Shown here: in pieces, positions 29,054-29,458 of the stretch | Layout of the letters: each line of letters starts with the position of its first letter | Position numbering within the stretch: position 1 is the first letter of the stretch | Assembly: GCA_016840165.1 (NCBI GenBank) | Contig: JAEOSU010000100.1 | Location: 1 to 43,578, forward strand | DNA length: 43,578 nt | From: Promethearchaeota archaeon | Lineage (GTDB): Archaea > Asgardarchaeota > Lokiarchaeia > Sigyniarchaeales > SOKP01 | Direction of reading: 5' to 3' | Notes under the pieces: model-generated | Database searches by the model: none | What the model was told of the DNA's origin: nothing | Seen by the model: the letters and a program-made list of their open reading frames with translations, nothing else | Translations under genes and position numbers: made by a program

Positions 29054-29212
29054 TTCAAATTTATTATATTTCAACTCAAATAATCGATTGACTAAATTAA
29101 ATTTTAATAAAATTTAATTAATAAGCTACACTACTTCTAAATACTTTAGACCGAATAAGGAAACATTTTATCGAAAATATTGCTCCTTATTGTTTGGTCT
29201 TGTGTGGAATTC

Positions 29213-29388
29213 TTAACCACATATTTATCTCAAAAAGCGCCGGAAGTTAAACTGTTTCGCGTTGCATCAAGTACTATAGTTGCGATCTATGGGAACATGC
29301 AAACTGTAGCTTTGGCTACGGTCATGGTGATGCAGGATATACCCGGTCCCATCCCGAACCCGGAATCGCTTTCTTTATATGTGGTTAA
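29213..29388 (+). other. Processing stem with a bulge-helix-bulge-like motif enclosing the permuted 5S rRNA
   Basis: TTAACCACATAT 29213-224 / ATATGTGGTTAA 29377-388; AAAGCG 29234-239 / CGCTTT 29367-372; central CCGG 29240-243 / CCGG 29360-363; bulges AAG 29244-246 and AAT 29364-366. Confidence 0.85.
29246..29365 (+). rRNA. rrf: 5S rRNA gene, circularly permuted (3' half 29246-29311, then 5' half 29314-29365)
   Basis: 5' half GGCTACGGTCAT...ACCCGGTCCCATCCCGAACCCGGAA and 3' half GTTAAACTG...AGTA...GGGAAC...CTGTAGC. All helices form: I 29315-321/29304-310; II 29327-335/29252-260; III 29343-346/29360-363 with loop C UCCCAUCCCGAAC; UUGCAU/AUGCAA; loop E AGUA/GAA; CUAUAG/CUAUGG. Total 120 nt. Confidence 0.93.
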
Positions 29389-29458
29389 CAATAATCCTAT
29401 ATAAAGTTAAACTCTTTTAAAAAAAAACGTTTTTAAGCGATATTTCTAATTAGATCTT

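What the first reader, a model, noticed from the sequence alone, without database searches (positions are those of the whole stretch)
29213..29388. BHB-like splicing motif predicts excision and ligation exactly at the 5S permutation point
Seen: the permuted unit is clamped by a 12-bp perfect inverted repeat (29213-224/29377-388) and a 6-bp stem (AAAGCG/CGCTTT). These are followed by a 4-bp CCGG/CCGG helix with a 3-nt segment 3' of it on each strand (AAG 29244-246; AAT 29364-366). Established: archaeal splicing endonuclease EndA cuts after the second nucleotide of each BHB bulge, and RtcB circularises the excised piece, as for tRNA introns and pre-16S/23S rRNA. Applying that rule cuts at A29245|G29246 and A29365|T29366, and ligation gives ...CCGAACCCGGAA|GUUAAAC..., the canonical 5S sequence to the nucleotide. 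The 5S would behave as the intron. The inner side is relaxed (bulge-helix-loop, or a 2-nt bulge with GUU/AAC pairing), which suggests a broad-specificity endonuclease. The paired non-5S flanks argue strongly against an assembly artefact.
Basis: partly seen in the sequence, partly recalled or inferred. Interest (0 to 1): 0.93.

Follow-up and report, generated by a model that had tools for sequence, protein, structure and literature searches.

The report
Splice motif rejoining a permuted 5S
This Lokiarchaeota-type (Asgard) archaeon writes its only 5S ribosomal RNA gene back half first, and the flanks fold into the cut-and-rejoin signal of the tRNA-splicing enzymes exactly where the halves must be joined. 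That would make 5S rRNA a spliced, probably circular, RNA in close relatives of eukaryotes.

Summary
Window 29246-29365 is a 120-nt circularly permuted 5S gene. It is bracketed by a 12-bp outer stem, a 6-bp helix (AAAGCG/CGCTTT), a 4-bp CCGG/CCGG helix and two 3-nt bulges (AAG, AAT).

Cutting after the second nucleotide of each bulge and ligating gives ...CCCGGAA|GUUAAAC..., the canonical 5S junction. That sequence is absent from the 99.7%-complete genome, which has no other 5S.

The layout is family-wide in Promethearchaeia (Loki): 96 of 134 genomes. The sister family has normal 5S genes.
- In 89 of 93 loci a bulge-helix-bulge (BHB) motif sits exactly at the junction. It is the top-scoring of about 13,000 position pairs in 69.
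- Both helices covary (GC/CG/TA; CCGG/CCGG to CUGG/CCAG).
- A second permutation point, in loop C, carries its own BHB.
- Relatives have about 30-nt BHB introns inside the same gene, and their removal restores the sequence of intron-less relatives.
- The genome encodes a two-subunit EndA with a crenarchaeal-type specificity loop, and RtcB.

No RNA evidence was obtainable, so cleavage, ligation and a circular end product are inferred. I found no paper describing this. This scan has already noted the same layout on other Asgard DNA (137 notes in at least 87 genomes).

The parts
29186..29197 (+). Putative TATA-like promoter element (CTTATTGTTTGG), about 15-25 nt upstream of the outer stem
   Evidence: It aligns with the conserved CTTAT(A/G)(A/T)AATGG block at the same distance upstream in relatives. 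Its promoter function is inferred, not tested.
29213..29224 (+). 5' arm of the outer processing stem (TTAACCACATAT)
   Evidence: Perfect 12-bp inverted repeat with 29377-29388. A contiguous stem of 11 or more pairs is present in 80 of 89 related loci, with 64 distinct stem sequences including compensatory variants.
29234..29239 (+). Leader strand of BHB outer helix h (AAAGCG)
   Evidence: Pairs with CGCTTT 29367-72. The three pairs nearest the bulge are kept in 36-39 of 39 distinct type-B flanks through GC/CG/TA/AT exchanges.
29240..29243 (+). Leader strand of the central 4-bp BHB helix H (CCGG)
   Evidence: Pairs with CCGG 29360-63. In relatives the leader CUGG pairs with trailer-side CCAG; the second pair of H is CG in 22, UA in 14 and UG in 3 flanks.
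29244..29246 (+). Leader bulge AAG. Predicted cut A29245|G29246; G29246 becomes the first retained nucleotide
   Evidence: The register comes from the BHB rule (established knowledge). Discarded position 2 varies (A/C/U) in relatives, while the retained G is invariant.
29246..29365 (+). Permuted 5S rRNA, the 120-nt excised piece: 3' half, then the helix I cap, then the 5' half
   Evidence: Rfam finds only a local match to helix III/loop C, 29341-65, at 23.7 bits. Rotated, the sequence folds as 5S. It aligns over its full length with normal 5S of the sister family at 52-59% identity. The consensus structure has 29 pairs, 21 with two-sided changes.
29304..29321 (+). Helix I closed by a UUUG tetraloop (CTGTAGC-TTTG-GCTACGG): the native 5S ends are joined in the DNA
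   Evidence: Read from the sequence. Helix I covaries, and relatives have UUCG/UACG/UUAG loops here.
29343..29346 (+). 5' strand of 5S helix III (CCGG), which competes with the leader CCGG for 29360-63
   Evidence: Rfam structure line. Constrained folds give -54.0 kcal/mol for the BHB conformer, -50.0 for the native helix III conformer and -55.1 for the MFE.
29360..29363 (+). Trailer-side strand of H (CCGG), which is also the 3' strand of 5S helix III
29364..29366 (+). Trailer bulge AAT. Predicted cut A29365|T29366; the AA is retained
   Evidence: The retained AA is invariant in 39 distinct flanks. The discarded third nucleotide is U, A or G.
29367..29372 (+). Trailer strand of BHB outer helix h (CGCTTT)
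29377..29388 (+). 3' arm of the outer processing stem (ATATGTGGTTAA)
29430..29434 (+). T5 run, a likely archaeal terminator (another T4 run lies at 29415-18)
   Evidence: A conserved GTTTTTAA block downstream of the stem is seen in the closest relatives. Termination is inferred.

Best explanation
The locus is a stand-alone transcription unit for the organism's only 5S rRNA, with the gene circularly permuted. The order is 3' half, then a 4-nt cap on helix I, then the 5' half.

Proposed pathway:
1. The leader and trailer of the transcript pair into a processing stem (12-bp outer stem plus 6-bp helix h). The stem ends in a relaxed bulge-helix-bulge motif. The leader CCGG pairs with the 3' strand of 5S helix III, and a 3-nt bulge follows it on each strand. 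There is no inner helix.
2. The heterotetramer-type splicing endonuclease (EndA alpha-beta) cuts after the second nucleotide of each bulge, at A29245|G29246 and A29365|T29366.
3. RtcB joins the 2',3'-cyclic phosphate and 5'-OH ends of the excised piece.
4. This creates the ...CCCGGAA-GUUAAAC... backbone that the DNA lacks. It also frees the 3' strand of helix III to pair with its native partner.

The product is a 120-nt covalently closed 5S. Because helix I is capped by a tetraloop with no spacer, the circle is most likely the mature form.

Shown here: the anatomy, conservation, covariation, the second permutation point, introns in relatives, and the presence of the enzymes. Inferred: folding into the BHB in vivo, cleavage, ligation and the final topology.
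For: 1. Anatomy is exact. The junction sequence is absent from the DNA. There is no other 5S in a 99.7%-complete genome.
2. The rotated sequence is a bona fide 5S: MFE fold; full-length alignment with normal 5S of the sister family; 21 of 29 pairs with compensatory change.
3. The layout is family-wide: 32 of 36 genomes of the genus and 96 of 134 genomes of the family. The sister family has normal 5S in 12 of 14 genomes at 50-68.6 bits.
4. A BHB lies exactly at the junction in 89 of 93 loci and is the best of about 13,000 position pairs in 69.
5. Covariation. The three h pairs nearest the bulge read GC27/CG8/TA3/GT1, CG27/GC6/TA2/TG1 and GC23/CG9/AT5/TA1. The second pair of H reads CG22/TA14/TG3. 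Overall 87% of cells are paired, against 11-38% when the partner is slid by 1-3 nt. None of 1000 column shuffles reaches the observed value.
6. A leader CUGG opposite a trailer-side CCAG rules out the idea that the leader helix strand is merely a duplicated remnant of 5S, which would read CCAG.
7. The 26 type-A loci break the gene in loop C instead, and each has its own h/H/bulges there. They restore the loop C sequence GG-NNN-CAUCC-GAAC at exactly the canonical length.
8. Discarded bulge positions vary and retained ones do not.
9. The BHB conformer is within 1.1 kcal/mol of the MFE and 4 kcal/mol better than the conformer with native helix III.
10. In relatives, 25 of the 30 loci longer than 124 nt carry a 29-31-nt BHB or BHL intron in the same gene. 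Examples have h of 3 bp and h' of 4-9 bp. Removing the intron gives the sequence of intron-less relatives. So 5S transcripts of this family must pass through the splicing machinery anyway.
11. Enzymes. The EndA catalytic paralogue has Tyr/His/Lys. Its best PDB match is the A. pernix catalytic chain at 3e-38, and the match includes the KPR lysine of the crenarchaeal loop. A second paralogue has Ser in place of the catalytic His. RtcB scores 556 bits.
12. Precedent: the permuted SRP RNA of Thermoproteus is cut at a BHB by a heterotetrameric EndA and is functional as a circle (PMC4731332).
Against: - There are no transcript data. Nothing shows the junction at the RNA level for this family.
- The motif is not a canonical hBHBh'. 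The inner helix is missing, so cleavage depends on a relaxed-specificity enzyme, which is only inferred from sequence.
- In this window the leader CCGG can equally pair with the 5' strand of helix III, and the unconstrained MFE fold does so.
- The register of cleavage (after nucleotide 2 rather than nucleotide 1) is discriminated only by three flank variants with ACG/AUG leader bulges. Otherwise it rests on the textbook rule.
- Three loci have an A-C mismatch in H, and a few have only 1-2 bp of h.
- Circular forms of ordinary 5S seen in other archaea have been read as degradation products (PMC12558985). A circle is therefore not automatically a functional form.
Confidence: 0.8

Rival explanations
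1. Linear permuted 5S. The transcript is trimmed (by EndA or other nucleases) but never ligated. The ribosome would use a 5S whose backbone is open between helix III and loop B, held together by helices II and III or by the retained flank stem. This would resemble the permuted mitochondrial 5S of brown algae.
For: Permuted 5S that stays permuted in the final RNA exists in stramenopile mitochondria (PMC4267664). The strong 12+6-bp flank stem could clamp the ends. No junction RNA was found.
Against: - In type-A relatives the break lies inside loop C, a universally conserved protein-binding loop, where an open backbone with a protruding stem is hard to reconcile with function.
- A precise, covarying 4-bp helix with 3-nt bulges is not needed for a simple clamp.
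- Retained and discarded bulge positions follow the cut rule.
- EndA products are the natural substrate of RtcB, which is present.
- In the brown-algal case helix I is replaced by a hairpin and the ends lie at the three-way junction, with no BHB.
Confidence: 0.12
2. Circular intermediate that is later reopened. EndA and RtcB make the circle, and a second endonuclease then opens the helix I cap to give ordinary 5' and 3' ends, as RNase P and Z do for permuted tRNAs.
For: Permuted tRNAs of Cyanidioschyzon mature this way (cited in PMC4267664). Circular pre-16S/23S are generally held to be re-linearised (PMC12918454).
Against: The cap is only a 4-nt UUUG/UUCG-type tetraloop directly on a 7-9-bp helix. 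It has no spacer and no recognisable processing signal. The Thermoproteus SRP RNA stays circular.
Confidence: 0.25
3. Assembly artefact, pseudogene or chance look-alike: the real 5S is elsewhere or unassembled.
For: MAG assemblies often miss rRNA genes. Two relatives (G015, G085) hold a normal-order 5S above the Rfam cut-off.
Against: - The same permuted order occurs on independent assemblies of 96 of 134 genomes, including single-contig ones, with compensatory evolution in 5S helices and flanks.
- G015 and G085 also hold the permuted locus. Their normal-order copies look bacterial (GAAGUGAAA type), and these genomes have estimated contamination of 5-7%.
- A scan of 241 million metagenome records for a contiguous, normal-order version of this family's helix III to GUUAAAC region found only two unrelated genes.
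Confidence: 0.01

Closest known systems
Permuted, circularised SRP RNA of Thermoproteus tenax / T. uzoniensis (Plagens et al. 2015, PMC4731332)
   Same: An essential structured ncRNA gene has its halves swapped. Leader and trailer form a BHB at the new termini. A heterotetrameric, relaxed-specificity splicing endonuclease cuts it and RtcB is proposed to ligate. The circle is the functional form. The canonical gene appeared to be 'missing' from the genome.
   Different: The RNA here is 5S rRNA, a ribosome component, not SRP RNA. The lineage is Asgard (Promethearchaeia), not Thermoproteales. The feature is family-wide, has two alternative permutation points, and has extra BHB introns in relatives. 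Here nothing is shown at the RNA or enzyme level.
Circularly permuted tRNA genes (Cyanidioschyzon merolae; Thermofilum pendens; cited in PMC4267664 and PMC5829648)
   Same: The 3' half is encoded upstream of the 5' half. A BHB or BHL motif is formed by the flanks. There is a circular RNA stage. They co-occur with intron-rich, 'disrupted' genes and with alpha-beta or other broad-specificity EndA.
   Different: tRNA circles are reopened by RNase P/Z at a spacer between the native ends. Here the native ends are joined by a bare tetraloop, so no reopening signal is evident.
Circular pre-16S/pre-23S rRNA processing in archaea (PMC8339473, PMC12918454, PMC7758197)
   Same: A long processing stem made from inverted repeats carries a BHB, which EndA cuts and RtcB circularises.
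   Different: Those genes are collinear with the mature RNA, and circularisation is not needed to create the mature sequence. The literature explicitly excludes 5S from this pathway. The 5S BHB here lacks the inner helix.
Permuted mitochondrial 5S rRNA of brown algae and other stramenopiles (Valach et al. 2014, PMC4267664)
   Same: It is a 5S rRNA whose helix I is closed and whose ends lie elsewhere. Standard covariance models miss it.
   Different: It is permuted in the final RNA as well, with the ends at the three-way junction. It has no BHB, no splicing machinery and no restoration of a canonical backbone.
Circular isoforms of ordinary 5S rRNA in Halobacterium and Sulfolobus (PMC12558985)
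   Same: Covalently closed 5S-derived RNAs exist in archaea.
   Different: They are heterogeneous junctions on normal genes, are interpreted as degradation-related, and are not BHB-defined.

Membership tests
5S rRNA (Rfam RF00001) | Reaches the family's gathering score (38 bits) | tested here: not met
   In genomic order only a local 25-nt match (model positions 27-51) at 23.7 bits. This is as expected for a permuted gene. The rotated sequence could not be given to cmscan.
5S rRNA (Rfam RF00001) | Three-way junction with helices I-V supported by covariation, plus the universal motifs (CGGUCAU, CCCAUCCCGAAC, AGUUAA, AGUA, GGGAA, AACUG) | tested here: met
   The rotated sequence folds as 5S at -34.7 kcal/mol. 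It aligns over its full length with normal 5S of the sister family. The consensus structure has 29 pairs, 21 with two-sided changes.
Canonical bulge-helix-bulge motif (hBHBh') | Central helix of exactly 4 bp | tested here: met
   CCGG 29240-43 pairs with CCGG 29360-63. All 4 pairs are kept in all 39 distinct type-B and 19 distinct type-A flanks, with CG/UA/UG exchange at the second pair. Three further loci have one A-C mismatch.
Canonical bulge-helix-bulge motif (hBHBh') | A 3-nt bulge 3' of the central helix on each strand | tested here: met
   AAG 29244-46 and AAT 29364-66. The spacing is constant in 89 loci. The leader bulge would be 2 nt if G29246 pairs with C29359.
Canonical bulge-helix-bulge motif (hBHBh') | Outer helix h of at least 2 bp | tested here: met
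   6 bp in the window. The three pairs nearest the bulge are paired in 36-39 of 39 distinct flanks, with compensatory changes.
Canonical bulge-helix-bulge motif (hBHBh') | Inner helix h' of at least 2 bp | tested here: not met
   In the strict register U29247 faces C29359 (0 bp). Type-A loci also have none. The motif is therefore a relaxed hBH / bulge-helix-loop form, not a canonical BHB.
Canonical bulge-helix-bulge motif (hBHBh') | Cleaved by the splicing endonuclease within both bulges | not testable with these tools
   This needs an in vitro assay or end mapping.
Permuted ncRNA genes matured through BHB cleavage and RtcB circularisation (tRNA, SRP RNA) | The 3' part is encoded upstream of the 5' part, with the native ends joined in the DNA | tested here: met
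Permuted ncRNA genes matured through BHB cleavage and RtcB circularisation (tRNA, SRP RNA) | The BHB-type motif formed by leader and trailer places the cuts so that ligation restores the canonical sequence | tested here: met
   89 of 93 loci, at two different permutation points.
Permuted ncRNA genes matured through BHB cleavage and RtcB circularisation (tRNA, SRP RNA) | Junction-spanning RNA molecules exist | not testable with these tools
   A metagenome-contig scan for the contiguous form found only two unrelated normal 5S genes. That collection is essentially DNA.
Heterotetrameric (alpha-beta)2 splicing endonuclease with broad specificity | Two paralogous subunits, one catalytic (Tyr-His-Lys) and one structural | tested here: met
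   Two PF01974+PF02778 proteins of 201 and 205 aa. The first keeps Tyr, His and Lys. The second has Ser where the M. jannaschii catalytic His aligns. Assembly into a tetramer was not tested.
Heterotetrameric (alpha-beta)2 splicing endonuclease with broad specificity | A specificity loop with a conserved lysine in the catalytic subunit | tested here: met
   The query segment GINKPR aligns without gaps to LDVEKPR of A. pernix 3p1z_B, which is Lys44 by my count of the alignment. The role of the loop lysine is from PMC5829648. Activity was not tested.

The most novel reading that the evidence does not exclude
The mature 5S rRNA in the ribosomes of this Promethearchaeia family, and by the scan's other notes of many Asgard lineages, is a covalently closed 120-nt circle. 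It would be made obligatorily by the tRNA-splicing machinery. The 5S gene would behave as a 'disrupted gene' family (two permutation points and several intron sites) in the way crenarchaeal tRNA genes do.
Probability: 0.45. Interest if true: 0.93.

Novelty: new variant of a known kind. Interest (0 to 1): 0.85.

Why it matters
5S rRNA is universal, and archaeal 5S has been described as the one rRNA that is not matured through BHB cleavage and circularisation (PMC12918454).

If this reading holds, a whole family of Lokiarchaeota-type archaea cannot make a 5S with a canonical backbone without EndA and RtcB. Ribosome biogenesis would then depend on the tRNA-splicing machinery, and the ribosome would probably carry a circular RNA.

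There are practical and evolutionary consequences.
- Standard tools report no 5S in these genomes (no Rfam gathering hit in the window or the genome). Annotation and MAG quality criteria that require 5S are therefore misled.
- The two permutation points and the introns at nearby sites give a natural series for asking how genes become permuted, for example whether an intron comes first, as Plagens et al. proposed for SRP RNA.
- This occurs in the archaeal group closest to eukaryotes, whose own tRNA-splicing enzymes are homologous.

Tried and rejected
1. Rfam gathering scan of the window and of the whole genome found no 5S. Only a local 25-nt piece appeared at relaxed thresholds. The other weak hits (snoRNA-like, tsr26) have E above 2 and are noise.
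2. ARAGORN found no tRNA in the window.
3. The pattern scan of genome contigs for the junction between the 3' end and the 5' start was too loose. Most of its 120 rows were chance bacterial matches. It served only to give organism names, such as Promethearchaeota/Promethearchaeia MAGs.
4. The scan of metagenome contigs for a contiguous helix III to GUUAAAC stretch, meaning the ligated form or a normal gene, returned two identical, unrelated normal 5S genes on contigs of about 283 and 357 kb. This gives no RNA-level evidence either way, because the collection is essentially DNA.
5. My first loose BHB scan (h of 3 or more, any position) gave hundreds of chance candidates per locus. I replaced it with ranked scoring.
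6. My first regular expression for type A picked a register shifted by one base. This was corrected.
7. By eye I first took the loop C insert for a plain expansion hairpin. The scan then showed a BHL with H of UCCG/CGGG whose removal restores CCGAAC exactly.
8. I did not use the count of structure pairs or build a covariance model, to avoid typing very long dot-bracket strings. The equivalent counts, slides and shuffles were done in Python on anchor-registered flanks.
9. Literature searches for a permuted or circular archaeal 5S gene found no such report.
10. I considered and rejected the idea that the leader CCGG is only a remnant of a tandem duplication. In CUGG/CCAG species it is complementary to the 5S strand it would have been copied from, not identical.

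Full report
WHAT IS THERE.
- TTAACCACATAT (29213-24) is the perfect reverse complement of ATATGTGGTTAA (29377-88). The repeat finder extends the pair to 16 nt at 94%.
- AAAGCG (29234-39) pairs with CGCTTT (29367-72).
- CCGG (29240-43) pairs with CCGG (29360-63).
- Each CCGG is followed on its own strand by three unpaired bases: AAG (29244-46) and AAT (29364-66).
- Between them lies a 5S rRNA gene in swapped order. The 3' half comes first (GUUAAAC ... CUGUAGC), then a UUUG loop that caps helix I (29311-14), then the 5' half (GCUACGGUCAUGG ... CCCGAACCCGGAA).

Rfam sees only a local 25-nt match to helix III/loop C (23.7 bits against a cut-off of 38). It finds no other 5S in the whole 3.6-Mb, 99.7%-complete genome. 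The genome has 31.6% G+C.

IS IT A REAL 5S? The 120 nt between the predicted cuts, when rotated, fold by minimum free energy alone into the 5S three-way junction. I took 48 distinct rotated sequences from relatives and aligned them with seven ordinary, non-permuted 5S genes of the sister family. The two sets align over their full length. Identity to the window 5S is 52-59% over 115-117 positions. The consensus structure has 29 pairs, of which 21 show two-sided compensatory changes.

WHO HAS IT. The organism is a Promethearchaeia (Lokiarchaeota-type) MAG, going by the record titles of relatives' contigs. The permuted order is found in 32 of 36 genomes of the genus and in 96 of 134 genomes of the family, across 9 of 13 genera. 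Inspection adds two further genera. The sister family includes single-contig genomes of 4.4 and 6.0 Mb, and it has normal 5S genes in 12 of 14 genomes at 50-68.6 bits. Only two genomes of the permuted family hold a normal-order 5S above the cut-off. Both also hold the permuted locus, and their normal copies look bacterial, so contamination is the likely source.

IS THE BHB MORE THAN CHANCE? For 93 loci I scored every pairing of a leader position with a trailer position, about 13,000 per locus. Each candidate needed a 4-bp helix followed on each strand by 3 free bases and then an outer helix.
- In 89 loci a candidate sits exactly where cutting after the second bulge base and ligating restores the canonical 5S.
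- It is the single best candidate in 69 loci and has at most four better-scoring candidates in 17 more.
- One of the remaining four loci is truncated by a contig end. The other three have the motif with one A-C mismatch in the 4-bp helix.

Covariation is strong. Among 39 distinct window-type flanks, the three outer-helix pairs nearest the bulge read GC27/CG8/TA3/GT1, CG27/GC6/TA2/TG1 and GC23/CG9/AT5/TA1. The second pair of the central helix reads CG22/UA14/UG3. Overall 87% of cells pair, against 11-38% when the partner strand is slid by 1-3 bases. None of 1000 column shuffles reaches the observed value. The sequences are related, so the shuffle count overstates significance. The slid controls and the variety of pair types are the sturdier evidence.

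In this window CCGG is a palindrome that occurs three times, which leaves the partner of the leader copy ambiguous. Relatives settle it. A leader CUGG faces CCAG on the 3' strand of helix III, whereas a mere duplicated remnant of 5S would read CCAG. Bulge positions that would be discarded vary (leader AA/AC/AU; third trailer base U/A/G). Positions that would be retained are invariant. The ACG/AUG leaders are the only direct sequence evidence for the cut register 'after base 2' rather than 'after base 1'. Otherwise the register is textbook knowledge. The outer stem is present as 11 or more contiguous pairs in 80 of 89 loci, in 64 sequence versions.

A SECOND PERMUTATION POINT. Twenty-six loci, in three genera including the window's own, break the gene in loop C instead (...CCCGGUC | CCAUCCGAAC...). 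Each has its own outer helix, 4-bp helix and two 3-nt bulges at that point. In these loci the leader CUGG/CCGG pairs with the 5' strand of helix III. Ligation restores loop C at exactly the canonical length. The motif therefore moves with the break, as expected if it is the rejoining signal.

INTRONS IN THE SAME GENE. Thirty loci are about 150 nt long instead of 120. In 25 of them a 29-31-nt insert is bounded by a BHB (helix IV sites, with h of 3 bp and h' of 4-9 bp) or by a bulge-helix-loop (loop C site, with H of UCCG/CGGG). Removing it by the same cut rule gives the sequence of intron-less relatives, with alignment scores of up to 118 out of 120. In those species 5S transcripts must therefore be substrates of the splicing endonuclease and ligase. 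That makes the same route at the permutation junction much more plausible. The window's own gene has no intron.

FOLDING. For the 29205-29395 transcript, the BHB conformer has the outer stem, h, H, both bulges free and 5S helices I, II, IV and V formed inside. It has -54.0 kcal/mol. The MFE is -55.1 kcal/mol and pairs the leader CCGG with the other strand of helix III. A conformer that keeps native helix III has -50.0 kcal/mol. The BHB form is thus accessible and is favoured over native helix III until the leader is cut away.

ENZYMES. The genome has two splicing-endonuclease paralogues of 201 and 205 aa, each with the N- and C-terminal endonuclease domains.
- The first keeps the Tyr/His/Lys triad. 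It matches the Aeropyrum pernix catalytic chain best (3e-38). The match is gap-free through the crenarchaeal loop and includes its lysine.
- The second has Ser where the catalytic His of the Methanocaldococcus enzyme aligns.

This is the alpha-beta architecture. According to PMC5829648 and PMC4731332, that type cleaves relaxed motifs lacking a helix or bulge, and it accompanies disrupted tRNA genes. RtcB is present at 556 bits.

MECHANISM AND ITS LIMITS. The best reading is as follows. Transcription starts at a TATA-like box near 29186-97. The leader and trailer then fold into the processing stem. EndA cuts at A29245|G29246 and A29365|T29366, and RtcB closes the 120-nt piece. Helix III then forms with its native partner. 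Because the native ends are joined by a bare tetraloop, the circle is probably the mature 5S.

None of the RNA steps is shown. A scan of metagenome contigs for the contiguous form returned only two unrelated normal 5S genes. The motif lacks the inner helix, so it is a relaxed BHB, not a canonical one. The rivals are a linear permuted 5S that is never ligated, a circle that is later reopened, and an artefact. The loop C break point, the covarying 4-bp helix and the many independent assemblies argue against the never-ligated 5S and the artefact. Only the bare tetraloop cap argues against reopening.

COMPARISON AND NOVELTY. It works like the permuted SRP RNA of Thermoproteus (PMC4731332) and like permuted tRNA genes. 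It resembles the BHB processing stems of pre-16S/23S. It differs from the permuted mitochondrial 5S of brown algae, which stays permuted and has no BHB (PMC4267664). It also differs from the heterogeneous circular 5S isoforms thought to be degradation products (PMC12558985).

Nine literature searches found no report of a permuted or obligatorily spliced archaeal 5S. A 2026 paper states that 5S is not processed by excision and circularisation. This scan has already recorded the same layout on other Asgard DNA: 137 notes in at least 87 genomes. One of those notes claims rejoined RNA in environmental data for another class, which I could not check. My own tests here agree with those notes. For this family they add the covariation counts, the second permutation point, the precise introns and the EndA architecture.

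Noticed in passing
Relatives: L029, L047, L049-L054, L087-L089, L092-L099, L107-L112, L114, L119: There is a second permutation point within the same family and even the same genus. The gene is broken in loop C (...CCCGGUC|CCAUCCGAAC...) instead of at GGAA|GUUAAAC, and it has its own BHB there. The two forms differ by moving a 16-nt segment from one end of the gene to the other. Deleting that segment from a type-A leader gives a type-B leader.
   Followed up: partly
Relatives: e.g. L026, L028, L082 (helix IV); L052, L102, L113, L115 (loop D side); L018-L024, L030, L031, L091, L094, L103, L117, L122-L124 (loop C); L101: There are 29-31-nt BHB or BHL introns inside the permuted 5S gene at four or more sites. 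Removing them by the standard cut rule reproduces the sequence of intron-less relatives. Five further long loci (L069-L071, L120, L121) have inserts that I could not resolve.
   Followed up: partly
Relatives, between the outer stem and helix h (e.g. L006 leader GTAGCAATTAGCTA; most of genus g18): Most of the family has a conserved small leader hairpin (GUAGC-loop-GCUAC) between the outer stem and the BHB. It is lost in the window's closest clade (L002-L004), where 9 unpaired bases remain. In type-A loci this hairpin makes Rfam report weak, spurious 'full-length' 5S matches of 30-33 bits.
   Followed up: partly
window 29213-29224 / 29377-29388 and relatives: The outer stem is conserved in sequence (AACCAC...GUGGUU) across genera, not only in pairing. 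That hints at a sequence-specific partner or a constraint beyond the helix.
   Followed up: no
L068, L072 (genus g22), L081 (genus g21): The leader strand of the central helix reads CCGA opposite CCGG, which gives an A-C mismatch next to the bulge. This is an even more relaxed motif.
   Followed up: no
L044 (G015 contig 263) and L032 (G085 contig 68): Two genomes of the permuted family hold normal-order 5S genes above the Rfam cut-off (51.9 and 80.8 bits). Their sequences look bacterial (GAAGUGAAA type). Both genomes also have the permuted locus, so these are probably bin contaminants.
   Followed up: partly
window 29180-29404 (+): A 74-aa ORF listed by the mechanical ORF finder lies entirely over the 5S locus and is surely spurious.
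   Followed up: no
window 29154-29191: A 19-nt imperfect palindrome (74% complementary, arms adjacent) lies just upstream of the putative TATA-like box of the 5S unit. Its function is unknown.
   Followed up: no
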